Source: an uncultured Chloroflexia bacterium
GTDB lineage: Bacteria > Chloroflexota > Dehalococcoidia > UBA2247 > RBG-13-53-26
Assembly: GCA_963720375.1 (NCBI GenBank)
Contig: CAVRFM010000015.1
Span: 39,988-103,987, forward strand
DNA length: 64,000 nucleotides
Direction of reading: 5' to 3'
Position numbers and translations under genes: made by a program. The notes beneath the pieces were generated by a model. The model did not search any database, was not told where the DNA came from, and saw only the letters and a list, made by a program, of their open reading frames with translations. Below, piece after piece: positions 32,286-43,223 of the stretch (the stretch's first letter is position 1; the number at the start of each line of letters is the position of its first letter).

Positions 32286-33665
32286 TCACCCCACCGGTTT
32301 CTCATACTTCCAAATAGTTCCTTGAGGCGTGTCCTCGAGAACTATCCCCAGATCCTTCAAGCACGAGCGGACTCTGTCAGCCATCCGCCACTGCTTCTCG
32401 TTCCTCAGTTCAGCCCGAATCGAAATCAGCAAGTCAATGAAGGGCTCGGCAGCCAACTTCATTGACTTCTCTTGAAAGGTAAACCCCAGAACGCTTCCCA
32501 GTTCAATCAGATTCTCTCGAGCCTGTCGCACATCAGCACCTTGACTTATACCCCGGTTAATCTCCCTGGCCAGGTCGAATAGGACCGCCACGGCCTGAGC
32601 TGTATTGAAGTCAGCATCCATAGCGTCGATGAACCTCTGCCGAAACAATTCGGTGTCAATTGCTCCTGTCAATCCCTTCTCCTCACACTGACCATTATCA
32701 AGGGCTGATTGACGCAGTCTTTCCACACCCTTTTCCGCAGCCGCCAGGTTCTCCTCGCTGAAGCTGATCGGGCTACGATAGTGGGAGCTCAGGATGAAGA
32801 ACCGTATCGCATCAGGAGTAAAGCGTTCCAAGACCTCCTTGATGGTAACAAGAATCCCCAGGGACTTGCTCATCTTTTCTCCACCCAGTTGCACGAAACC
32901 ATTATGCATCCAGTACTTGACGAAGGGGGTGACCCCGGTAAAGCTTTCCGATTGGGCTATCTCATTCTCATGATGCGGAAAGATCAGGTCCTGTCCTCCG
33001 CCATGTATGTCTAAGGTCTCACCCAGGTGTCTCAGGGACATGGCGCTGCATTCAATGTGCCAGCCAGGTCTCCCCTTGCCCCAAGGGCTTTCCCACCACG
33101 GCTCACCGGGCTTCGCCGCCTTCCACAAGGCAAAATCCAGAGGATGTTCCTTGCCAACTCCTACTTCTACACGCGCTCCCGCTTGCAGAGCTTCAAGGCC
33201 CTGGTGGCTGAGCTTTCCATAATCCGGAGCACTGCTCACTCTGAAGTAGACATCGCCACCTGCCTGGTAGGCATGCCCCCTGTCAACCAAGCCCTGAACT
33301 ACTTCAATAATTTTGGGTATCTCTTCAGTAGCTCTAGGATACACGTGAGCCCTCTTAATATTCAGCTTATCCATATCAACAAAGTATTGGGAAATAAACT
33401 TTTCAGCTAGCTCGGCAGGAGAAGTGCCCGATTTGTGCGCTCGATCGATAATCTTGTCGTCAATATCGGTAAAGTTTTGCACATGCTTCACCTTGTATCC
33501 CTTAAACTCCAGGTAGCGTCGCACCACGTCGAAGATTACATAGCTCATAGCATGGCCAAGATGGCACTCAGCGTAAGGAGTAACCCCACAGACATACATC
33601 CTCACCACCTCACCCTGAGGCACGAACTCTTCTTCCCGTCCCGAAAGAGTGTTATATATCTTCAC
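32286..33665 (-). CDS. cysS: Cysteine--tRNA ligase
   Basis: HLGHA and KMSKS class-I motifs. 459 aa. Confidence 0.93.
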   Translation of the reverse strand: MKIYNTLSGREEEFVPQGEVVRMYVCGVTPYAECHLGHAMSYVIFDVVRRYLEFKGYKVKHVQNFTDIDDKIIDRAHKSGTSPAELAEKFISQYFVDMDKLNIKRAHVYPRATEEIPKIIEVVQGLVDRGHAYQAGGDVYFRVSSAPDYGKLSHQGLEALQAGARVEVGVGKEHPLDFALWKAAKPGEPWWESPWGKGRPGWHIECSAMSLRHLGETLDIHGGGQDLIFPHHENEIAQSESFTGVTPFVKYWMHNGFVQLGGEKMSKSLGILVTIKEVLERFTPDAIRFFILSSHYRSPISFSEENLAAAEKGVERLRQSALDNGQCEEKGLTGAIDTELFRQRFIDAMDADFNTAQAVAVLFDLAREINRGISQGADVRQARENLIELGSVLGFTFQEKSMKLAAEPFIDLLISIRAELRNEKQWRMADRVRSCLKDLGIVLEDTPQGTIWKYEKPVG

Positions 33666-33723: not shown

Positions 33724-34215
33724 TCAGGTTTTGACCTCATGTGCGACCTTGTCCACCAAGGCCACAGCATACGCAGCTATCGCCTTCTCTTCCCCCAAAA
33801 AGCCGAGCCCTTTAGAAGTGGTGCTTTTTACCCCAACCTGCTCTATGCTGATACCCAGGGTCTGACCGATCAATTTCCGCATCTGGGGGACAAAGGGGGA
33901 CAGGTGAGGCTTTTCCGCCACTATGGTAGCGTCAACATTACACACCTGCCATCCTTCCGTTTGGAGCAGCGTGGCTACCTGGCGAAGAAGAGTGATACTG
34001 TAGATGTCCTTATACCTCGGATCAGAGGAGGGAAAGTGAATCCCTATATCCCCTAAACCAGCTGCGCCTAACAGAGCATCGATGATGGCATGCACCAGAA
34101 CATCGGCGTCGCTATGGCCATCAAGCCCCTTGTCAAAGGGTATCTCTATACCCCCTAACAGAAGCCTTCTTCCCTGCACTAAAGGGTGAACATCATAGCC
34201 GATGCCAACCCTCAT
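33724..34215 (-). CDS. ispF: 2-C-methyl-D-erythritol 2,4-cyclodiphosphate synthase
   Basis: GIGYDVH...GHSDADV motifs. Confidence 0.93.
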   Translation of the reverse strand: MRVGIGYDVHPLVQGRRLLLGGIEIPFDKGLDGHSDADVLVHAIIDALLGAAGLGDIGIHFPSSDPRYKDIYSITLLRQVATLLQTEGWQVCNVDATIVAEKPHLSPFVPQMRKLIGQTLGISIEQVGVKSTTSKGLGFLGEEKAIAAYAVALVDKVAHEVKT

Positions 34216-34921
34216 GCCTCTTCCTCAAAATGATCTCTGCCAGGGCCAAGTCCTCCAGCGTGGTAATCTTAATATTATCATAGGAGCCCATGTAGACTCT
34301 GACCTTATACCCAAGTGCCTCCACCAGAGCGGCATCATCCGTCACTTCCCCTTTAGCCTGCCGATATGCCTCCGTTATTATATCAAAGCGAAACACCTGC
34401 GGGGTCTGTGCTACCCAGAGGTTTTCTCGCCGAGGGGTATTCCGGATTGTCCCCTCGGCTTCAACTATTTTTACGGTTTCCTTTACAGGTACCGCCGCAA
34501 TAGCCGCCCCGGTCTGACGGGCCTCCTCTAGCCCCTGCTCTATCAGATCAGGAGTGATGCAAGGACGCGCCCCATCATGAATCACCACCCAGTGGCAACC
34601 TCCCAGCCCTTTCAGCCCCTCGGCTACCGAATCCTGGCGCCGTTCTCCACCGGCGCATACCTGCGCCACCTTCTGAAACCTTCCTTCCTTTACCACCTCC
34701 CGCCCTCGCTCCAAGCTCACTTCATTCAGCACGATCACCACCTGATCCACTGCACCACATTTCTCAAACACTTCAAGCACATGAGCCAGGACCGATTTGC
34801 CAGCGATGTCAGCAAAAATCTTGTCCACCCCACCCATCCGCCGGCTACTGCCAGCGGCAGCAACAACAGCCCCCACCTTCTCCCGAGATAGCTTCCTCAC
34901 CTTGATAACCGCCTCCTGCAA
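34193..34921 (-). CDS. ispD: 2-C-methyl-D-erythritol 4-phosphate cytidylyltransferase
   Basis: VVAAAGSSRRMG motif. Overlaps ispF in the usual ispDF arrangement. Confidence 0.9.
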   Translation of the reverse strand: MQEAVIKVRKLSREKVGAVVAAAGSSRRMGGVDKIFADIAGKSVLAHVLEVFEKCGAVDQVVIVLNEVSLERGREVVKEGRFQKVAQVCAGGERRQDSVAEGLKGLGGCHWVVIHDGARPCITPDLIEQGLEEARQTGAAIAAVPVKETVKIVEAEGTIRNTPRRENLWVAQTPQVFRFDIITEAYRQAKGEVTDDAALVEALGYKVRVYMGSYDNIKITTLEDLALAEIILRKRHEGWHRL

Positions 34922-34939: not shown

Positions 34940-35017
34940 GGTGGGCGTAGCCCAGCGGTTTAAGGCGCCAGGTTGTGGCCCTGGAGATCGAGGGTTCGAA
35001 TCCCTCCGTCCACCCCA
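34940..35017 (+). tRNA. tRNA-His (anticodon GTG) with genome-encoded G-1 and CCA
   Basis: Acceptor stem G-1/GTGGGCG pairs with CGTCCAC-C. Anticodon stem CCAGG/CCTGG with loop TTGTGGC. T-arm GAGGG-TTCGAAT-CCCTC. 3' CCA. Confidence 0.85.
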
Positions 35018-35094
35018 GCGCCTATAGCTCAGCGGATCAGAGCATCGGTCTTCGGAACCGAGGGTCGAGGGTTCGAATCCCTCTAGGCGCGCCA
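35018..35094 (+). tRNA. tRNA-Arg (anticodon TCG), starts at the base after the CCA of tRNA-His
   Basis: Acceptor GCGCCTA/TAGGCGC. D-stem GCTC/GAGC. Anticodon stem TCGGT/ACCGA with loop CTTCGGA. T-arm GAGGG-TTCGAAT-CCCTC. 3' GCCA. Confidence 0.85.
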
Positions 35095-35684
35095 TCTCTA
35101 CGAGCCAAGTTATGCCCATATTCGTGTCCATATTCCCTCACAAAATGCCCCTGATCAATGTCGCCGTCAGCATATTCTGACACTTTTGCTAACAATTTGC
35201 TAACCACCATACACACGGCCGATTCCATGCAGATCTTTTGCACACCCCCCGCAGCTTTGGGCTACCTCTATTATCCTCGCTGTTGCACACAATAGCATCT
35301 GCTTACTATCACTACTAAATAGGCCTGCTATCCATCCACAGAACGAAGAGAAATAGTGCAGTGATACTCATAATGCAGCTAATGTGCAGTGCTGCTGGCA
35401 CTGCCGAGATCATAGGAGTGAAAATGAGGACGTTCCTTAATTACTACTGATCTTTTGATCTTTGCCTGTTGCCTTCTCCAACTCTAGTAGGGTCTTTTAT
35501 CGACGGATTGCCCAAGGGTGTCAGCCCTATCTAGAGCGCTGATTTAGCCAAGGTAGCATTACATGAAGACTTACTGGGCTGTGCCCTGCAAATCAGACCA
35601 TCATTGAACCAACATGCGGCGGCTTGCCTGTGCTGGTGTCCTTTGTACGGAAGAAGAGGTGTGACTCCAAGGTCTAGAAACAAG

Positions 35685-36077
35685 CTATGCGTTTGCTGAG
35701 TGGGGCTTCTTTATTTTCATTACGCTGGCTCTAAAACGAAGATACTTCAAGTACTCTGTCAGTTCCTCAATTTCGTTAGGCGTGGCGGTTGAGAGAATAT
35801 CTGGTTGTGATTGGGGAGGCGTGTGGAAGGATATAATCCAGTCGAACTCGGGTGTGTAGCCAGCTTTCTTCTGCAAAACTTGCACTGGCACGCCGAGTAT
35901 GATTGCGAGTTGAAGTAACTCAGGTTGCCTCGGGCGCCTGTCACCTTTCTCCCATCGGCAGACGGTGCTGAGAGATCTGTGCACCTTCTCACCCAAGTCA
36001 TCCTGTGACATTGGGACTGGCTGTCCAAGCCTAGTCTCACGGAGAAGATCTCCGAATTCTTTCCAGCGGTTAGGCAT
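35685..36077 (-). CDS. HTH_XRE-family transcriptional regulator with a C-terminal extension, divergent from the HD-protein operon
   Basis: MSQDDLGEKVHRSLSTVCRWEKGDRRP...LLQLAIILGVPVQVL helix-turn-helix. Confidence 0.75.
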   Translation of the reverse strand: MPNRWKEFGDLLRETRLGQPVPMSQDDLGEKVHRSLSTVCRWEKGDRRPRQPELLQLAIILGVPVQVLQKKAGYTPEFDWIISFHTPPQSQPDILSTATPNEIEELTEYLKYLRFRASVMKIKKPHSANA

Positions 36078-36132
36078 GATGGTGAGACTCCTTGTTGATA
36101 CTGCGTTGCGATTTTATGTTCTTTTTTACTCT

Positions 36133-36173
36133 TTGTCAATACTTACGGCAACAATATTGACAAAATGTATAAT
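36133..36173 (+). promoter_or_regulatory. Perfect 9-bp inverted repeat TTGTCAATA-N13-TATTGACAA (candidate operator) abutting a TG-TATAAT extended -10 element for the downstream 146-aa / HD operon
   Basis: Inverted-repeat arms at 36133-36141 and 36155-36163. TG at 36166-36167 and TATAAT at 36168-36173. Lies in the divergent intergenic region between the XRE regulator and the operon. Confidence 0.5.
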
Positions 36174-36264
36174 AGTGGTAATCTGTTTGTTGTAAGGGCG
36201 TGGTTCCCCTATAATTGGAGCCCCACCGTCAGTCCGGTGGTCTCAGGAAGAAGGAGGTGGGATC

Positions 36265-36705
36265 TTGCCTAGGACAGTTAGTGCGGATTCCCAAACTGGG
36301 CACCTCACGCTCTATGATAGTGTTGTAGCAGCGATAGGGGGGATCCACGAGGATCAAGCTAGCATGCAAGATCAGAGGATCCCCGTGGAGGATTGCTACC
36401 GTGCCTTCAGCCTTCTTGCATCCGAGTTTCCAGAGAGCTTTCCGGGTGTCTATTTTTCCCGGCGGAGCGGAGTCCCATATTCCAGAGATATCGAGGACGT
36501 GTTGTTCCAGGCAGGGGCATGGAGGCTCATCGAAGATAATAACCCTGACTACCGATATTTCACAGTACCCGCGGCGACCAGAAGACTGATCAAGGAACAG
36601 CTGAGCAAGATTCACAGTGGCAAGACGGGGGATCTTGAGCAAGTCTCCCTACGATTCAAATCTGTGCTAGAGGAACTGAAGCGGGTTGAGTCCCACAGCC
36701 TGTGA
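36265..36705 (+). CDS. Hypothetical protein (146 aa) whose 3' end overlaps the start of the HD-domain gene
   Basis: ORF follows the extended -10 promoter. Overlaps the next ORF by 20 nt in a different frame, suggesting co-transcription. No recognisable motif. Confidence 0.55.
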   Translation: MPRTVSADSQTGHLTLYDSVVAAIGGIHEDQASMQDQRIPVEDCYRAFSLLASEFPESFPGVYFSRRSGVPYSRDIEDVLFQAGAWRLIEDNNPDYRYFTVPAATRRLIKEQLSKIHSGKTGDLEQVSLRFKSVLEELKRVESHSL

Positions 36706-38215
36706 CGCCCTAGCAGAAGAAGTGAACTCCGCGGTTACGGAGATCCTCGGTGACTATAAGCCAAGAAAGATCAGGGACCCCAAGGTCATCCGAGACACCG
36801 CATTTGGCTTTAACCTGTTCCACAAGCATGAGATCAACTTGCTCGATTCGCCGCTTATGCAGCGGTTGCGGCAAGTACGTCAGACGGCTCTAGCCTTCTA
36901 CACCTATCCCTCATCAGTGCATACGCGCTTCGAACATTCCCTTGGTGTCACTGTACTCGCGCAACGCATGCTAGATGCCCTTCGGCAGCGTAAACCCTCC
37001 ACCGCTAGTGATGTCGCCTGCATGGAGGTTCGCCTAGCTGCATTATTGCACGATGTCGGTCATGGTCCATTCTCCCACGCATCTGAAAAGGTCTACAGTT
37101 CCCTCGACCAAATTAAGCGGGCAAAGGAAGAGAACCCCCTGCTAAAAGACAATGAGGCGCACGAAATCCTTTCCTACTTTGTGATCAAGTCATCCAAGTT
37201 CAACGAACTGTGGAGCACCATTCTTGCGAAGTATCAATTGGGTGATAACCCCATCAACCTTGGCGAGATACGCCTTGATCATGTTGCCGAGATGATTCTT
37301 GGTCATCATCCAACGCCCCAACTTAAGTACTTAGCCCAGATTGTGAACGGTCCTCATGATGCGGACAAGCTTGATTACATTACGCGCGATGGTTATTTCA
37401 CTGGTTTACGAACGGCGATCGATCTAGATAGGCTCTTCCTATGTCTGGGGGTCTACGAAAGCGACTCCGGCGAATGCCAATTGTGTGTAGATTTGAGTGG
37501 TGTGACGGCACTTGAGCAGATGCTATTCAACAAGATGCAACTCTATACATCAGTCTATCATCACCATAAGGTTCGCGCGGCTTTCCGTTCGTGTGTTGCC
37601 ATCATTGATGCATGCCGTAACAAGAAGCTGAAGGCGATCGGAGGATCGGAACTCGGTAGTCCGGTTGATTTCATGAGGATCGACGACGGCGCTATTTTGA
37701 GCGCCCGATCGACAGGGGATGCTGACCTCGACAAATGTCTTGCCAATTTGCGAAATCGCATTCTTCCGATGCGTGCTCTGGTACTGTGCTCAGACTCAGT
37801 GGATGATAACGCCTCTCGTTTTCTTCTGGCACGTATGCGGCGGGATACCTCCACAGCCAACGCTCTGCGCGAAGAAATCGCAACCAGAGCTAAAGTCGAC
37901 AACTCGCACATTCTAGTTGATTTTCCGGAAGAGCCACGTTTCATGAGCACAGCGCTCGGCAGTCTTGTTAGGGTCAGTCCTCAAGATGTAGTCCGCCTCA
38001 ACTCGATATTTCCAGTAGGGGGATGGGTGAGAGGTCATGCTGAACACAGATACAGAGTGTATGTATTCAGTCCCTATGAGTCGGAAGAGGCAGTGGCGAA
38101 AGCAGCATACGCCATACTGAGAGAAAAGTACGGGATCAAACCAAACAAAATGGCCTTCTTCCTTGCCAACCATACGCCGACATTCGTGGCATCGCTCCAA
38201 CTGGGGAATTCGTGA
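36686..38215 (+). CDS. HD-domain dNTP triphosphohydrolase-like protein (dGTPase / SAMHD1-type HD phosphohydrolase), 509 aa
   Basis: HTRFEHSLGV...LLHDVGHGPFSH and GPHDADKLDYITRD motifs of the dGTPase-like HD family. N-terminal IRDTAFGF...QRLRQVRQ segment as in this family. Lower-GC context. Confidence 0.8.
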   Translation: MSPTACDALAEEVNSAVTEILGDYKPRKIRDPKVIRDTAFGFNLFHKHEINLLDSPLMQRLRQVRQTALAFYTYPSSVHTRFEHSLGVTVLAQRMLDALRQRKPSTASDVACMEVRLAALLHDVGHGPFSHASEKVYSSLDQIKRAKEENPLLKDNEAHEILSYFVIKSSKFNELWSTILAKYQLGDNPINLGEIRLDHVAEMILGHHPTPQLKYLAQIVNGPHDADKLDYITRDGYFTGLRTAIDLDRLFLCLGVYESDSGECQLCVDLSGVTALEQMLFNKMQLYTSVYHHHKVRAAFRSCVAIIDACRNKKLKAIGGSELGSPVDFMRIDDGAILSARSTGDADLDKCLANLRNRILPMRALVLCSDSVDDNASRFLLARMRRDTSTANALREEIATRAKVDNSHILVDFPEEPRFMSTALGSLVRVSPQDVVRLNSIFPVGGWVRGHAEHRYRVYVFSPYESEEAVAKAAYAILREKYGIKPNKMAFFLANHTPTFVASLQLGNS

Positions 38216-38285
38216 GATCGCAAGCGGTGCCAGTGCGATGGTACTACATTCGCCGCCTAAGTCCGTCAGCTTGCCCGCTATCCCT

Positions 38286-39200
38286 CTAGAGATCAACCTG
38301 GACGGAATTGTTGGTGCCGGCGCGTACCGCCATCATTTGTGAAGCATAACTCTCTGGCACTCGCATTTGATGGCCGAGTGCCGTCTTCTCATCAAAGCGA
38401 TGCACGGCGGCTTGCTGTAAACCCGGTGCAATATGGCTGTACGTGTCGAGCAAAAGTGATGGATATACTGGAATGCCACAGCTTGCCTTAAACGACTTTT
38501 GGGGTGTATTCCCTATTTGCCATATGGATGTAGACATAATCTCCAGGACTTGACGTCCTCTGCTAGCCGTCTGATATCATCCGAGGTGACTTCCAGTTAC
38601 ACGCATCCCGATAGTGCTTTTACACAACAAGTGCCCAATTGGGGCAAGGGCAAGACTACTCATCAAAGGGGGAGGTAGCAAATGGCGAGACAGTGTAAAA
38701 CAGTAGAGATAGTGTACAACGCAAGAGGTCGAGATGTCTTGACATGGTGTATAAAGACAGCTTTTCTCTCCTTGATAACACTGGGGTTCTACTTGCCTGT
38801 TGCCGCAAATAAGCTTGTGAGATATCTGTGCGAGCACACAAAGATACGCATAGACGAGTCAGAGGTCTCAGGAACGTAGTTCGCAGCCTTGGCTGCTAGC
38901 AACCTGCTGAACATGAAATGGCATTGGTTGGTATTTTACAGATCGAGTGTGTCACTACAGAGAGAATCTCATATCAGTCAACAAGACATAAAGTAAACCC
39001 CTTGACCTGGGAAACAGGGACGGTTGTAAACTCATGAAAGGCTTTTCGGGGGCAACCCTTCTAAATATAAATGGAACCAATCCTCAAGAGCAACGCAACA
39101 TAAAGATAAGCCCTTGACCAGCCCAAGGAGGGCAGTTCTATACTTATCAAGCCGCATCCTCGGAGAGAAGGCTTTATTCGGTAATTTCTCGCTTCTTAAC
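38286..39200 (-). pseudogene. Decayed tyrosine recombinase (phage-type integrase) gene remnant
   Basis: Minus-strand frames give ...PKVV*GKLWHSSISIT (LGHSSI box with an in-frame TAA), then a shifted frame gives LLDTYSHIAPGLQQAAVHRFDE (catalytic-Tyr box). Upstream frames are broken. No intact ORF over 90 aa. Confidence 0.5.
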
Positions 39201-39253
39201 TAATTCCGAATCCTCACGTCGCAGAGCAAGACTTTTTAGCTCTAAAGGGGGGT

Positions 39254-40570
39254 ATGAAAACAGCTAAAGAGACTTGGGAGACTGCCAAAGGGGCCCTTCA
39301 GGTTCAGGTTAGCAAAGCCAACTTCGACACTTGGCTAAAGGACACTGTAGGGATCAGTCACCAAGGAAATCAATTTGTAATCGGAACTCCCAGCGCTTTC
39401 GCCAAGGAATGGCTGGAAAAGCGTCTTCATTCTTTGGTAACGAAGGTGCTCATCAGCATTGTAGGGCATGAGATTGAGGTTCAGTTCCAGGTCTGCCCGG
39501 ACCAGGACTCTGTCTGGCAGGGCCAGGACCACTCACAATCGAAGCTGCCATTGCCAGTGGGCAACCCGAGGTATACTTTCGAAAACTTCGTTGTCGGGGG
39601 TTCAAACCGTCTTGCCTACGCTGCTGCATTGGGGATATCTGAGGAGCCAGGGCGGCAGTACAATCCGCTTTTCATCCACGGTGGATCCGGCCTGGGAAAG
39701 ACCCATCTTTCCCACGCGATAGGGAATGAAGCTTCCGAAAACGGATTCAAGGTCGTTTATACTGGCAGCGAGCAATTCACCAATGAGTTCATAAGTTCAA
39801 TCAGGGAGAGAAGGACAGAGGAGTTTCGCAGCAAATTCAGGAACGCTGACATTCTCGTCATAGAGGACATCCAGTTCCTGGTTGGCAAACCCTCGACACA
39901 GGAAACACTGTTTCACACCTTCAATGAACTGCATGACACCAATCGCCAGTTGGTTATCACCAGCGATCGCCCTCCAAAGGCGATGACTACCCTGGAGAGC
40001 AGCTTATGTTCCCGCCTCGAAAGCGGGCTTATTGCCCAAGTTGAAGCACCTGACCTGGAAACACGTTTGGCCATCCTTCACGCAAGGGCCGAGGAACAGC
40101 AGGTTGTCATCGACGAAGCCGTATTCGATTTCATCGCCCAGCGTTGCCAGCGAAATGTCAGGGAACTAGAGGGAGCCCTGACTGCGCTTATCGCCGATGC
40201 AAAGATGTCACAGCAGCGTCCTACACTGGAGCTGGCGCAGGAGGCTCTGCGCGATATGCCTTCGGATAATTTAGGCTCATATGCTACTACCCCGGCATCG
40301 ATATTGAAGGCAGTGGCCGACCACTTCCAGGTGAGTTTAGAATCCCTGAAAGGCCGTAAGAGAGACAATCGATTAGCCATGGCGCGACACATCGCCATCT
40401 ACCTTGTACGAGAGAAGACAAATTGCCCCCTGCAGGATATCGGCAAATTGCTTGGCGGCAGAGACCACTCCACTATTCTCAGGGGCTATCATAGAATCGC
40501 CGGCACAGTTTCTACTGATCCCGCAGTGCAGAGAAACATCCATCAGATTGTGGCTAATCTTCCCACTTAG
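39254..40570 (+). CDS. dnaA: Chromosomal replication initiator protein DnaA
   Basis: Walker A GGSGLGKTHL, AAA+ sensor motifs and the C-terminal DNA-binding HTH (ARHIAIYLVREKT...LGGRDHSTIL). Confidence 0.95.
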   Translation: MKTAKETWETAKGALQVQVSKANFDTWLKDTVGISHQGNQFVIGTPSAFAKEWLEKRLHSLVTKVLISIVGHEIEVQFQVCPDQDSVWQGQDHSQSKLPLPVGNPRYTFENFVVGGSNRLAYAAALGISEEPGRQYNPLFIHGGSGLGKTHLSHAIGNEASENGFKVVYTGSEQFTNEFISSIRERRTEEFRSKFRNADILVIEDIQFLVGKPSTQETLFHTFNELHDTNRQLVITSDRPPKAMTTLESSLCSRLESGLIAQVEAPDLETRLAILHARAEEQQVVIDEAVFDFIAQRCQRNVRELEGALTALIADAKMSQQRPTLELAQEALRDMPSDNLGSYATTPASILKAVADHFQVSLESLKGRKRDNRLAMARHIAIYLVREKTNCPLQDIGKLLGGRDHSTILRGYHRIAGTVSTDPAVQRNIHQIVANLPT

Positions 40571-40767: not shown

Positions 40768-41373
40768 ATGAATATAGGGGTGTTTGGAGGCACCTTTGAT
40801 CCAGTCCACCGTGGACATATTGCTGCGGCCCAAAAGGTGAAAAGTGTTCTTGGCCTGGAGACGATTTTCTTTGTCCCGGCAGGGCAGCCTTGGCTCAAAG
40901 CAGATATTCCTGTTTCCCCGGCGAGGCACCGGGTAGAGATGGTACGTCTTGCCATTGCTGGTAAGAGATACTTCCAGATATCTACTACTGAGGTCGACAG
41001 GCCTGGCCCCTCCTTTACTGTTGACACCATTGATGTGCTGCAAAGGCAGCTGGGCGCCGCAGCAAACCTGTGGTTCATTTTGGGGAGTGACACGCTTTCA
41101 GACCTGCCGCGATGGAAGGAGCCGACCCGCCTCATACAGATTTGCCATCTGGTAGCATTCACCAGACCGGGTTTTGTCCCTCCTCCGCTGGAGTGGCTCG
41201 AATCATCTATCCCGGGTATTTCCAATCATGTTACTTTCGTAGAGGTACCGCAAATAAATGTCAGTGCCTCTGATATTCGACGCCGGGTAGCACAGGGTGC
41301 TTCCATTCGCCGGATGGTACCTGGAGCTGTGGAAAAGTATATCCTGGAACACGGATTGTATGTGTCCCCCTAG
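40768..41373 (+). CDS. nadD: Nicotinate-nucleotide adenylyltransferase
   Basis: GVFGGTFDPVHRGHI nucleotidyltransferase motif. Confidence 0.9.
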   Translation: MNIGVFGGTFDPVHRGHIAAAQKVKSVLGLETIFFVPAGQPWLKADIPVSPARHRVEMVRLAIAGKRYFQISTTEVDRPGPSFTVDTIDVLQRQLGAAANLWFILGSDTLSDLPRWKEPTRLIQICHLVAFTRPGFVPPPLEWLESSIPGISNHVTFVEVPQINVSASDIRRRVAQGASIRRMVPGAVEKYILEHGLYVSP

Positions 41374-41647
41374 GTTGTGTGGGCTGATCAAGTTGAGCGT
41401 TATTCATATACGGATACCCAAGAAACGTTGGTATAGTCCAAGAAGGTGGTGCTAAATGAGATGCCCCAAATGCGGTTATTGCAGCTTTGATGAGGGATGT
41501 AACCATGCCTCTAGCTGATAGAGACTACATGAGAAAAGAACATCCTCCTGCTTGCACCTGCGTTGAGTGCGAAAGGCGAAGGGCAAACAAGGGCAGACGG
41601 CGCACGGGGGAATCTCTCTGGAGTAGAACAATTGGGAGGCTGTTCTC

Positions 41648-42193
41648 TTGGATGCGCTGATGGATGGAGACGTATCAATGTCGCAGGAACGTGATAACGC
41701 TCTCACTAAGGTAGAACTGGCTCGCTACTTCCTCGAACTCATGAAACGTATTGAGAACAGCAGGGCACCTTTGCTACAGGGGAGCACTGCTCTGAGTGTC
41801 CTACAAGAGTACACTTCCTACTTGGATGGATTCTGGGCTGAGTGCTACAGTGCCACACGCTATTTCGATGATGTCAATCCTAAGTGTGCAAAGGCACTTA
41901 AAGACTTTCGAGAAAAAACGCAGGGAGATTTCTACGCATGGGGTACTGGTAAGCGTTCCATATCCGTTCACCACAAACCAGTTGAGCCAAAGAGGGAAGG
42001 CTATATGCCGCCACGAGGAGACAACATTGGTGGGCAACTCTTAGAATACGACCCCCCAAATTGGAACAAGATCAATTCCAAACTGAACGACTATTACTAC
42101 TTCACTGATGATCCTTCGGAGCAGCCGATAACTAGGCAGTGTGAGAGTCACTTAGCAGAACTAGAGAAGTTCATAAAGCAGAATTGTCCATGA
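41648..42193 (+). CDS. Hypothetical protein (181 aa; the start may be the Met at 41678)
   Basis: ORF with no recognisable motif. Lies upstream of, and co-oriented with, the protease gene. Confidence 0.5.
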   Translation: MDALMDGDVSMSQERDNALTKVELARYFLELMKRIENSRAPLLQGSTALSVLQEYTSYLDGFWAECYSATRYFDDVNPKCAKALKDFREKTQGDFYAWGTGKRSISVHHKPVEPKREGYMPPRGDNIGGQLLEYDPPNWNKINSKLNDYYYFTDDPSEQPITRQCESHLAELEKFIKQNCP

Positions 42194-42227
42194 CTGGCAC
42201 CTATGAGGCAAGATAAAATGAATATCA

Positions 42228-43088
42228 TTGATCGGGGATATCAATATGCGCGTACCTGACGAGGTTCGCCAATGCGTCGTGTTTGTGGGGCTTGGAGACG
42301 GCAAGGGAGGAGTGTCATTCAAAGGGACAGCTTTCTTCGTTAGTGTACCTTCCAAGAGCAAACCTGAAGTTAGTTACCTATACTTGGTAACAGCCAAACA
42401 TGTGGCAGCCTTACTGCAAGACAAACCATTCTTAATCCGAGCCAACACGAATGATGGGAAGTCATGCGTAATTGGAGGCGCAAGAGTACATTGGTGGTAT
42501 CATCCCACCGATCCTTTCGTAGATGTAGCCATCATCTCTTGGGTACACCCCGAAAACATGCCCCTTGACTATCTTGAATACAAACACATTCCAACTACAA
42601 TGTTTTTGTCCGATGAAGCTATATATAGTCGTGCTATCGGCACAGGGGATGAGGTATTCATCACTGGGCTTTTTGCACATCTGACAGGCTCATCAAGAAA
42701 CCTGCCAATAGTCCGCATTGGCAACATAGCCATGTTCCCTACAGAGCCAGTACCGACACGTATCGGCAACATCGAAGCTTATTTGATCGAAGCTAGATCA
42801 ATTGGAGGTTTAAGTGGTTCTCCTGCCTTTGTCATCCAAACAGCTCCACCTGAAGTTGGCAAGCTTTACCTTTTGGGATTGATGCATGGTCACTGGGATA
42901 TCCCCCCAGAGGCAAAGAACGACCAACTGGTAATGGACAATGATCACTATAAGCAGGTGAATATGGGCATAGCGATTGTAATTCCAGCTAAGAAGATATT
43001 GGAGGTTATGAACCAAGAAATACTAGACACATGGAGAAGACTAGAGGATCAGAAGATGCAGAAAGAACAAGTACCACCGCCAATGTGA
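42228..43088 (+). CDS. Trypsin-like (chymotrypsin-fold, S1-type) serine protease
   Basis: Catalytic-triad context VTAKHV (His), DVAII (Asp) and GGLSGSP (Ser). Confidence 0.65.
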   Translation: MIGDINMRVPDEVRQCVVFVGLGDGKGGVSFKGTAFFVSVPSKSKPEVSYLYLVTAKHVAALLQDKPFLIRANTNDGKSCVIGGARVHWWYHPTDPFVDVAIISWVHPENMPLDYLEYKHIPTTMFLSDEAIYSRAIGTGDEVFITGLFAHLTGSSRNLPIVRIGNIAMFPTEPVPTRIGNIEAYLIEARSIGGLSGSPAFVIQTAPPEVGKLYLLGLMHGHWDIPPEAKNDQLVMDNDHYKQVNMGIAIVIPAKKILEVMNQEILDTWRRLEDQKMQKEQVPPPM

Positions 43089-43223
43089 AGTATGAGGATT
43101 GAAATATGAATAACGCTGAAGTTGATGAAGCCTCGCTCTGAACACTATAATCTACTGGCTGGTCTAACCGAGAGTATTAGGGAATCGGACTCCATCTAAG
43201 TTAGACTACTCTAGTTAATCATT

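What the first reader, a model, noticed from the sequence alone, without database searches (positions are those of the whole stretch)
38286..39200. Tyrosine-integrase gene decayed by a nonsense codon and a frameshift
Minus-strand translation shows the recombinase box II (KLWHSSISIT in place of LGHSSISIT) preceded by an in-frame TAA where Q/E is expected (PKVV*GKLWH). A frame change then occurs right before the catalytic-tyrosine box LLDTYSHIAPGLQQAAVHRFDE. The nonsense mutation cannot be a simple indel error, so this is real decay. It argues that the islet is an old, now immobilised, integrated element.
Basis: seen in the sequence. Interest (0 to 1): 0.55.

Follow-up and report, generated by a model that had tools for sequence, protein, structure and literature searches.

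The report
Dead integrase stub beside dnaA
This is the broken last 15% of a phage-type integrase gene, left in a small foreign DNA island lodged between a tRNA-Arg gene and dnaA in an uncultured Dehalococcoidia genome; it is an ordinary relic of a mobile element that can no longer move.

Summary
The minus strand at 38346-38528 encodes the last ~59 codons of a tyrosine integrase (…K*GIHPKVV*GKLWHSSISIT/LLDTYSHIAPGLQQAAVHRFDE…).

The lesions are worse than reported:
- two stop codons (TAG 38513-15, TAA 38488-90);
- two frameshifts (+1 nt in the run 38497-38504, +4 nt at 38451-54);
- a Gly→Trp change in the LGH motif;
- loss of the first ~330 codons. Nothing in 38529-39200 resembles integrase.

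Two further assemblies of the same locus share both stops and both frameshifts, so they are not sequencing errors.

The three closest relatives keep ispD – tRNA-His – tRNA-Arg(TCG) – dnaA with only 189-638 bp between tRNA-Arg and dnaA. The window has 4159 bp there. The extra ~3.5-4 kb is therefore an inserted islet carrying an XRE regulator, a small ORF, an HD-domain protein and the integrase stub.

Ninety bases past the tRNA lies a tandem repeat, GTTAGCAAATTGTTAGCAAAA. In many phage contigs this repeat abuts the stop codon of integrases of this family, so it is probably an arm-type binding site. No second arm tandem or attR repeat survives.

Verdict: a degraded, immobilised island inserted next to a tRNA gene. 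It is ordinary biology. "Old" is not demonstrable.

The parts
34941..35094 (+). tRNA-His(GTG) 34941-35017 and tRNA-Arg(TCG) 35018-35094. The tRNA-Arg 3' end is the left boundary of the islet and the presumed attL core.
   Evidence: ARAGORN and Rfam. The tRNA pair is 97-98% identical in relatives L144 and L146, and their similarity to the window stops at or within 6 nt of the tRNA end.
35184..35207 (-). Tandem GTTAGCAAATTGTTAGCAAAA (11-nt period), a putative arm-type integrase binding site on the int-proximal att arm, 90 nt from the tRNA-Arg 3' end.
   Evidence: 22/24 identical to L005 3236-3259, which overlaps that integrase's stop codon. 21/21 identical to the tandems in L252 and L278. In at least 13 IMG/VR loci the same tandem lies on the int strand within about 0-40 nt of the integrase end. 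It is one of only 6 such tandems in the window.
35685..36077 (-). XRE/HTH regulator (130 aa), islet cargo.
   Evidence: Pfam HTH_31 and HTH_3. PHROG repressor families. A TTGACA-17-TAAAAT promoter at 36139-36111 and the inverted repeat 36121-36175 lie upstream. Absent from relatives.
36265..36705 (+). 146-aa ORF without family match, overlapping the start of the HD gene; islet cargo.
   Evidence: No Pfam, PADLOC, NCBIfam or PHROG hit. A small ORF of 144-152 aa precedes HD homologues in L225, L226 and L227. It is frameshifted in L139.
36686..38215 (+). HD + HD_assoc_2 phosphohydrolase (509 aa), islet cargo and a possible defence gene.
   Evidence: Pfam PF01966 and PF19276. Weak dGTPase hits far below curated cut-offs. 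Some homologues are fused to TIR or SEFIR domains. Absent from relatives.
38346..38528 (-). Integrase stub: the last ~59 codons of a tyrosine integrase. It retains the LGH-motif His (38475-38473) and the catalytic Tyr (38441-38439).
38513..38515 (-). TAG in place of Gln in the LKQG motif.
   Evidence: shared by L139 and L224.
38497..38504 (-). One extra nucleotide in a CCCCAAAA run (+1 frameshift inside HPK).
   Evidence: shared by L139 and L224.
38488..38490 (-).
   Evidence: shared by L139 and L224.
38476..38478 (-). TGG (Trp) where the family has Gly in LGH; specific to the window's strain.
   Evidence: L139 and L224 have GGG here.
38451..38454 (-).
   Evidence: shared by L139 and L224.
38529..38978 (.). 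About 450 nt with no detectable coding or integrase homology. It holds the unmapped right edge of the islet, and the deletion junction lies at or near its left end.
   Evidence: No HMM, tblastn, tblastx, PHROG or Rfam signal. No repeat of the tRNA-Arg 3' end.
38979..39253 (+). Ancestral dnaA upstream region with two conserved promoter-like motifs (38986-39009 and 39097-39133); it is not part of the islet.
   Evidence: blastn matches to the tRNA-Arg–dnaA spacers of L144, L145 and L146.
39254..40570 (+). dnaA, the chromosomal gene to the right of the islet.
   Evidence: Pfam Bac_DnaA, Bac_DnaA_C and DnaA_N. The cumulative GC-skew minimum lies at about 35-38 kb.

Best explanation
A temperate element integrated at the 3' end of tRNA-Arg(TCG), immediately upstream of dnaA, in the ancestor of this Dehalococcoidia strain. 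Its integrase was a heterobivalent tyrosine integrase (arm-binding domain + SAM-like domain + catalytic domain).

The left junction survives. It consists of the tRNA, a 90-nt spacer and the GTTAGCAAA tandem that this integrase family carries next to its stop codon. A 3.1-kb cargo block (XRE regulator, 146-aa ORF, HD phosphohydrolase) lies between that tandem and the integrase gene, which reads towards the tRNA.

A deletion then removed the first ~330 codons of the integrase, the rest of the element, the second arm tandem and attR. The remaining ~59 codons drifted, gaining two stops, two frameshifts and several replacements. The stub has no function, and the islet is fixed in place.

Shown: homology, lesions, their presence in three assemblies, absence of the islet from relatives, and the tandem with its association to this integrase family. 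Inferred: the arm-site role of the tandem, the one-element history, and the order of events.
For: 1. Integrase homology is confined to 38346-38528 and covers only HMM positions 333-370 of 378.
2. Both stops and both frameshifts are identical in L139 and L224, so they are real.
3. The relatives L144, L146 and L145 (DnaA 72, 68 and 64% identical) keep cysS-ispF-ispD-tRNA-His-tRNA-Arg-dnaA. Their tRNA-Arg–dnaA spacers are 449, 638 and 189 bp against 4159 bp here. They contain no homologue of the HTH, ORF146 or HD genes and give no integrase HMM hit. Window 38979-39253 aligns to their dnaA upstream regions.
4. Members of this integrase family lie next to tRNA genes: L002, L005, L007 and L008. Other stubs lie next to tRNA-Arg(TCG) in L140/L141 and next to tRNA-Ser in L143.
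5. Tandem repeats with an 11-12-nt period cluster at the integrase stop codon: at least 11 of 24 loci have a run of 8 nt or more, against 4.3% of random segments. The exact GTTAGCAAAnnGTTAGCA tandem abuts integrase genes in at least 13 IMG/VR loci. In five loci it occurs twice, 195-265 nt apart, as in an attP.
6. The window's copy is on the stub's strand, 90 nt from the tRNA end. The stub has no tandem of its own, and its homology ends at …VPESY, where family ORFs stop.
7. Intact relatives carry an Arm-DNA-bind_4 domain.
Against: - In every intact relative the tandem lies within about 40 nt of the integrase stop. Here 3.1 kb separates them, so an extra insertion event has to be assumed, and its mechanism is unknown (no transposase, no clear target duplication).
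- No attR, second tandem or tRNA fragment was found, so the right edge of the islet is only bracketed (38529-38978).
- The left edge could lie anywhere in 35095-35183.
- The nearest genomes without the islet are distant (DnaA at most 72% identical), so the empty site is inferred across species rather than within a population.
- The curated Pfam profile does not detect the fragment.
- In most relatives examined the neighbouring tRNA points the same way as int (L005, L007, L008, L140, L143). Here the tRNA and the stub converge, as in L002.
Confidence: 0.85

Rival explanations
1. Two elements integrated one after the other at the same tRNA-Arg. The stub belongs to an older element that was pushed away from the tRNA. 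The arm tandem and the HTH-ORF146-HD block belong to a newer element whose own integrase has been lost completely.
For: In intact relatives the tandem abuts the integrase stop, so a 3.1-kb gap is unusual. A 10-mer, ATCCCTCTAG (38280-38289), is identical to the T-arm/acceptor part of tRNA-Arg (35077-35086). It lies just 3' of the stub on the tRNA's strand, where an internal att relic would be expected. Only 11 of 2000 shuffles give a match this long, but the test was made post hoc. Tandem accretion at tRNA and ssrA sites is documented in Dehalococcoides (PMC2764846).
Against: The 8 nt that follow the 10-mer do not match the tRNA 3' end (GCGCGCCA), which an older attL should have supplied. The 10-mer is altered in L224. 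No arm tandem lies next to the stub, and there is no trace of a second integrase anywhere in the window. This history also needs more events than the single-element model.
Confidence: 0.12
2. The stub is kept because it does something. Possibilities are the 83-aa ORF 38286-38537, a terminator or regulatory RNA for the convergent HD gene, or a landing pad for incoming elements.
For: Carboxy-terminal integrase stubs also persist beside tRNA genes in unrelated genomes (L140/L141, L143). The stub and its lesions are shared by three strains.
Against: The 83-aa ORF is a chimera of out-of-frame and in-frame integrase sequence and has no family match. Five of the six clustered positions at which the window differs from both other assemblies lie inside the stub and the sixth lies just upstream of it, while 36900-38000 is identical in all three. 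That is the opposite of constraint. No Rfam family or convincing terminator is present. Stub lengths in other genomes differ (about 59, 72 and 167 codons), as expected from random deletion end points.
Confidence: 0.02
3. The resemblance is due to chance, or the lesions are assembly errors in an intact gene.
For: Pfam PF00589 gives no hit at E<=1 on the reconstructed fragment. One frameshift sits in a homopolymer run.
Against: E=2.8e-12 in a 5.8-billion-protein database. tblastn gives E=2.9e-6 without any reconstruction. Identical stops and frameshifts occur in two independent assemblies. No integrase-like sequence exists for the missing ~330 codons.
Confidence: 0.01

Closest known systems
Heterobivalent tyrosine integrases of temperate phages and integrative elements (lambda Int / Tn916 Int type; Pfam Arm-DNA-bind_4 PF14657 + Phage_int_SAM_3 PF14659 + Phage_integrase PF00589)
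   Same: The stub aligns to the carboxy-terminal end of the catalytic domain, covering the LGH motif and the LDTYSH tyrosine box. Intact relatives have this three-domain architecture and lie next to tRNA genes. Tandem repeats beside int fit arm-type sites.
   Different: Only about 15% of the gene remains. The arm-binding and SAM-like domains, the box I Arg, the Lys and the HxxR motif are all absent. The reading frame is broken four times. It cannot encode a recombinase.
tRNA-integrated genomic islands of Dehalococcoides, for example the bvcAB island of strain BAV1 at tRNA-Arg with a 58-bp direct repeat and an integrase, and truncated recombinase homologues beside tRNA-Ala repeats (PMC2764846)
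   Same: The class of organism is the same (Dehalococcoidia). A tRNA gene serves as the insertion site, a recombinase gene is associated with the island, and the location is near the replication origin, where plasticity is concentrated. The islet is absent from relatives.
   Different: No flanking direct repeat survives. The islet is tiny (about 3.5-4 kb), carries no reductive dehalogenase genes, and sits directly between the tRNA and dnaA rather than in the plasticity regions HPR1 or HPR2. This organism is only distantly related to Dehalococcoides (its DnaA is at most about 52% identical to any genome representative).
Cryptic or defective prophage remnants with integrase pseudogenes, as in E. 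coli K-12 (my own knowledge, not tested here)
   Same: The decay path is the same: deletion of most of the element, inactivating mutations in int, loss of one att site, and retention of a few cargo genes that may benefit the host.
   Different: The host phylum and the integrase lineage differ, and the remnant is much smaller.

Membership tests
Tyrosine recombinase / phage integrase (PF00589) | Significant sequence similarity to the catalytic domain | tested here: met
   Best E=2.8e-12 against integrase C-termini; tblastn E=2.9e-6; the family HMM hits only this site. The curated Pfam model itself gives no hit at E<=1, and the PHROG integrase family gives E=0.024, because only about 40-59 residues remain.
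Tyrosine recombinase / phage integrase (PF00589) | Complete catalytic set: Arg (box I), Lys, His-x-x-Arg, His/Trp, Tyr | tested here: not met
   Only the His of LGH (38475-38473) and the Tyr (38441-38439) are present. Sequence upstream of 38528 shows no similarity to the HDxRH region (score 19 against null 21.6±4.0).
Tyrosine recombinase / phage integrase (PF00589) | Uninterrupted ORF of about 300-450 codons | tested here: not met
   There are two in-frame stops and two frameshifts within about 59 codons. The rest of the gene is absent.
Heterobivalent (arm-binding) integrases | N-terminal arm DNA-binding domain | tested here: not met
   It is present in the intact relatives L001, L002 and L005. 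No trace of it exists in the window.
Heterobivalent (arm-binding) integrases | Arm-type repeats flanking the core in the att site | tested here: inconclusive
   One tandem (35184-35207) lies in the expected orientation, 90 nt from the tRNA end. Its sequence matches tandems next to integrases of this family. Binding was not tested, and the second tandem is missing.
tRNA-integrated genomic island / prophage remnant | Insertion adjacent to the 3' end of a tRNA gene | tested here: met
   Non-homologous sequence starts at or within 6 nt of the tRNA-Arg 3' end when compared with L144 and L146.
tRNA-integrated genomic island / prophage remnant | Absent from the same locus in related genomes | tested here: met
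   The tRNA-Arg–dnaA spacer is 189-638 bp in L144-L146 against 4159 bp here, and those loci have no homologue of the islet genes.
tRNA-integrated genomic island / prophage remnant | Direct repeat of the tRNA 3' end at the far junction (attR) | tested here: not met
   There is no match with up to 3 mismatches. In 38519-38985 local alignment scores are at null level. Only a 10-mer at 38280-38289 was found.
tRNA-integrated genomic island / prophage remnant | Deviant base composition | tested here: inconclusive
   The islet has GC 0.498, against 0.530 for the whole window, 0.522 for the left flank and 0.509 for the right flank. The difference is small.
Anti-phage dGTPase (for the HD cargo gene) | Score above the curated cut-off of the dGTPase models | tested here: not met
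   NCBIfam antiphage_dGTPase scores 22.7 bits against a cut-off of 400. PADLOC dGTPase gives E=4e-8 over about 80 residues of the HD motif only.

The most novel reading that the evidence does not exclude
The 3.1-kb XRE–ORF146–HD block may be a self-contained cassette that was inserted exactly between the integrase stop codon and its arm-site tandem. That junction would then be a cargo hotspot. The small-ORF + HD pair, which has TIR-fused homologues, may be a nucleotide-targeting defence module that is repeatedly placed next to dnaA: it lies upstream of dnaA here and just after dnaA-nadD in L226. A separate oddity also remains open. The window's strain carries five substitutions and one deletion within 72 bp at the 5' edge of the stub, which might reflect a single localised mutational event.
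Probability: 0.1. Interest if true: 0.4.

Novelty: new member of a known kind. Interest (0 to 1): 0.14.

Why it matters
Its value is mainly for annotation. The 83-aa ORF at 38286-38537 should be labelled an integrase pseudogene fragment, not a gene. The stretch 35095 to about 38978 should be marked as a degraded integrated element at tRNA-Arg(TCG).

The locus also gives a clean example of a tRNA-targeted insertion directly upstream of the dnaA promoters, at the GC-skew switch of a Dehalococcoidia genome.

As a by-product, the analysis exposes a widespread tandem, GTTAGCAAAnnGTTAGCAAA, that flanks the att region of many integrases carrying an Arm-DNA-bind_4 domain. This tandem could help delimit prophage ends. 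None of this changes current understanding of site-specific recombination.

Tried and rejected
- **Pfam on the reconstructed fragment.** No hit at E<=1.
- **A tRNA or tRNA relic beside the stub.** ARAGORN at relaxed settings and Rfam at E<=10 found nothing credible.
- **An attR repeat of the tRNA-Arg 3' end.** None found.
- **A second GTTAGCAAA tandem to the right of the stub.** Only a single one-mismatch copy, on the wrong strand, at 38674.
- **More integrase sequence in 38529-39253 or 35208-35685.** None found by tblastn, HMM, dynamic-programming alignment or tblastx. One further alignment script timed out.
- **E. coli-type DnaA boxes.** No cluster near dnaA.
- **Exact look-up of DnaA in public assemblies.** Not on record.
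- **HD gene in viral contigs.** No relatives found.
- **Diversity-generating retroelement as the cause of the clustered differences.** Rejected, because the changes are not adenine-specific and include an indel.
- **A single gene-conversion tract from an intact paralogue.** Rejected, because the shared stops and a shared frameshift lie between the changed sites.
- **Literature search for the tandem motif.** It returned only primer sequences.

Full report
**Setting.** The window comes from an uncultured Dehalococcoidia bacterium. Its DnaA (39254-40570) is at most about 52% identical to any of the 185,579 species representatives, and all the best matches are Dehalococcoidia/Chloroflexota MAGs. 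Cumulative GC skew reaches its minimum at about 35-38 kb, so the locus lies at the replication origin. The local gene order is:
- cysS (32286-33665, minus strand);
- ispF (33724-34215, minus strand);
- ispD (34193-34921, minus strand);
- tRNA-His (34941-35017) and tRNA-Arg(TCG) (35018-35094);
- an XRE-type regulator (35685-36077, minus strand);
- a 146-aa ORF (36265-36705);
- an HD + HD_assoc_2 protein (36686-38215);
- the feature in question;
- dnaA, then nadD (40768-41373).

**The observation.** A frameshift-aware alignment to the family consensus reads:

K*GIH\PKVV*GKLWHSSISIT//LDTYSHIAPGLQQAAVHRFDE

against

KQGIH PKVVQERLGHSSISIT LDTYSHVAPGLQQAAAKRFDE.

The alignment shows these lesions:
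- TAG at 38515-38513;
- one extra base in the CCCCAAAA run at 38504-38497;
- TAA at 38490-38488;
- Trp for Gly at 38478-38476;
- four extra bases at 38454-38451.

The catalytic Tyr codon is 38441-38439. The carboxy-terminal tail (…EKTALGHQMRVPESY, ending at 38346) still resembles family tails such as …VKVSHNDTVPEKVD. It ends where those ORFs stop.

**Is it more than chance?** The joined 53-aa peptide finds 164 proteins at E<=0.01 among 5.8 billion, with a best E of 2.8e-12. Every hit that carries a name is called integrase or tyrosine recombinase, apart from one 'hypothetical protein'. Without any manual joining, tblastn of 30 full-length integrases taken from IMG/VR gives E=2.9e-6 at 38456-38388. 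An HMM built from 13 of them hits only 38505-38388 in all six frames of the window. Curated generic profiles are too blunt for so short a piece: Pfam gives no hit at E<=1, and the PHROG integrase family gives E=0.024.

**How much of the gene is left?** All matches fall in HMM positions 333-370 of 378, which correspond to residues ~333-377 of ~390 in the intact proteins. Sequence upstream of the K*G codons aligns to the preceding 30 consensus residues, which include the HDxRH motif, no better than shuffled DNA (score 19 against 21.6±4.0). The remnant is therefore about 59 codons (38346-38528), roughly 15% of the gene. The mechanical 83-aa ORF 38286-38537 is a chimera of frames.

**Are the lesions real?** Two independent assemblies cover the locus. 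L139 (Logan, ERR11596056) is 99.7% identical over 35216-38641. L224 (ENA, ERZ25039519) also covers the stub. Both carry both stops and both frameshifts, so these are biological and predate the split of the three strains.

**The islet.** A metagenome scan with DnaA recovered closer relatives: L144 (72% identical), L146 (68%) and L145 (64%). All three keep ispF-ispD-tRNA-His-tRNA-Arg(TCG)-dnaA, and L144 and L146 also retain cysS. The spacer between tRNA-Arg and dnaA is 449, 638 and 189 bp in L144, L146 and L145, against 4159 bp in the window. None of them has a homologue of the XRE, ORF146 or HD genes, and none gives an integrase HMM hit.

Similarity to the window ends at the tRNA 3' end (or at most 6 nt beyond it). 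It resumes at 38979-39253, a stretch that holds two conserved promoter-like motifs upstream of dnaA. The window therefore carries about 3.5-4.0 kb of inserted DNA. Its left edge lies at 35095-35183 and its right edge somewhere in 38529-38978. Islet GC is 0.498 against 0.530 for the whole window.

**Link between the islet and this integrase family.**
- Where contigs extend past the stop codon, intact relatives have a tRNA gene 56-170 bp downstream: L002 tRNA-Val, L005 tRNA-Ser, L007 tRNA-Arg(TCG) and L008 tRNA-Lys.
- Some of the stub's closest database matches are themselves isolated carboxy-terminal stubs beside tRNA genes. P0002 lies next to tRNA-Arg(TCG) in L140/L141, and P0018 lies next to tRNA-Ser in L143.
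- The family has tandem direct repeats with an 11-12-nt period at the integrase stop codon. Runs of 8 nt or more occur in at least 11 of 24 loci, against 4.3% of random segments.
- The window has such a tandem at 35184-35207. On the minus strand it reads GTTAGCAAATTGTTAGCAAAA. It lies 90 nt from the tRNA-Arg end, on the stub's strand, and is 22/24 identical to the tandem overlapping the L005 stop codon.
- An exact-pattern scan of IMG/VR found this tandem directly after integrase genes in at least 13 loci. In five loci it occurs twice, 195-265 nt apart, which is the layout of an attP with arm sites on both sides of a core. L252 and L278 carry the identical 21-mer.
- Intact relatives have an Arm-DNA-bind_4 domain.

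I infer that the tandem is the int-proximal arm site and that 35018-35207 is a surviving attL.

**History.** The stub has no tandem of its own, and its homology ends at the position where family ORFs stop. The tandem sits 3.1 kb further along the same strand. The simplest reading is one element ordered tRNA – arm tandem – cargo (XRE, ORF146, HD) – int, followed by a deletion. That deletion removed the integrase 5' part, the rest of the element, the second tandem and attR.

The alternative is two elements in tandem, for which the main support is a 10-mer. ATCCCTCTAG at 38280-38289 equals tRNA-Arg 35077-35086, and only 11 of 2000 shuffles give as long a match, though the test was post hoc. Against it, the following 8 nt do not match the tRNA end, and the 10-mer is altered in L224. 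Either way the islet cannot excise.

**Comparison with what is known.** Islands integrated at tRNA genes, with integrases, direct repeats and truncated recombinase copies, are well described in Dehalococcoides near the origin (PMC2764846). This locus is a small, degraded example in a distant relative. It is homologous to the tyrosine integrase family but fails every test for a functional member.

**Cargo.** ORF146 + HD is a conserved gene pair (L225, L226, L227). Some HD homologues are fused to TIR or SEFIR domains. The dGTPase models match only the HD motif and score far below their cut-offs. A defence role is a lead, not a finding.

**Verdict.** The biology is ordinary. Interest is low.

Noticed in passing
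window 38478-38549: The window differs from both other assemblies (L139, L224) at six clustered positions (five substitutions and one 1-nt deletion) within 72 bp at the 5' edge of the integrase stub, while 36900-38000 is identical in all three. At two of the sites (Gly of LGH, S-M-M) L139 and L224 are nearer the integrase consensus, so the window looks derived there. Shared stops lie between the changed sites, which rules out one conversion tract from an intact gene. The cause is unknown.
   Followed up: partly
L224 versus window 35300-36900: The ENA contig is 15-20% divergent with many indels over the XRE gene, ORF146 and the start of the HD gene, yet identical over 36900-38000. This is either a mosaic strain or local assembly noise. 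Only the HD gene was called on that contig.
   Followed up: no
L231, L239, L241, L252, L254, L257-L259, L266, L270, L276-L279 (IMG/VR): A tandem GTTAGCAAAnnGTTAGCA(AA) lies directly after the stop codon of diverse integrases of this family (three intact relatives tested, L001, L002 and L005, carry Arm-DNA-bind_4). In five phage contigs it occurs twice, 195-265 nt apart, an attP-like layout. A literature search for the motif returned only primers.
   Followed up: partly
window 41374-43223: There is a second small insertion relative to relatives. Two ORFs (41648-42193, 181 aa with no match; 42228-43088, 286 aa with a PADLOC PDC-S45 hit at E=1e-14) lie between nadD and dut. Those two genes are only 135 bp apart in L146 and L148.
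   Followed up: partly
window 38986-39009 and 39097-39133: Two copies of ACATAA(A/C)GnAAnCCCTTGAC, each followed about 17-19 nt later by TAAACT or TATACT, are conserved upstream of dnaA in L144, L145 and L146. They are probably tandem dnaA promoters. The tool's consensus scan missed them.
   Followed up: partly
window ~35000-38000: The cumulative GC-skew minimum places the replication origin here, so the islet sits at the skew switch. No cluster of E. coli-type DnaA boxes (TTATCCACA, up to 1 mismatch) occurs near dnaA.
   Followed up: no
L226 5320-7292; L225 1687-3640; L227 635-2607: A small ORF (144-152 aa) followed by an HD + HD_assoc_2 protein is a conserved two-gene cassette. In L226 it lies just after dnaA-nadD, so it is again next to the origin but at a different exact site. 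Homologues P0206, P0226, P0227 and P0238 carry TIR or SEFIR domains.
   Followed up: partly
L144 1595-1625: This relative lacks the islet, yet it has one TTGCTAAC copy and the word ATTCTGACAC about 54 nt after its tRNA-Arg. Both words also flank the tandem in the window (35172-35204). This may be a scar of a related element.
   Followed up: no
L140 4641-5311, L141, L143 4932-5315: Other genomes carry isolated carboxy-terminal integrase stubs (about 167 and 72 codons) 49-60 bp upstream of tRNA-Arg(TCG) or tRNA-Ser, in otherwise chromosomal context. Many 53-93-aa 'integrase' ORFs in the protein database are of this kind.
   Followed up: partly
window 36111-36175: A strong promoter-like site (TTGACA-17-TAAAAT, minus strand) and a 21-nt inverted repeat lie in the divergent region between the XRE gene and ORF146. 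This looks like a repressor-operator arrangement.
   Followed up: no
window 36457 versus L139: L139 has a 1-nt deletion and a substitution inside ORF146, so that ORF is not called there. ORF146 may be decaying or may not be a real gene in this lineage.
   Followed up: no
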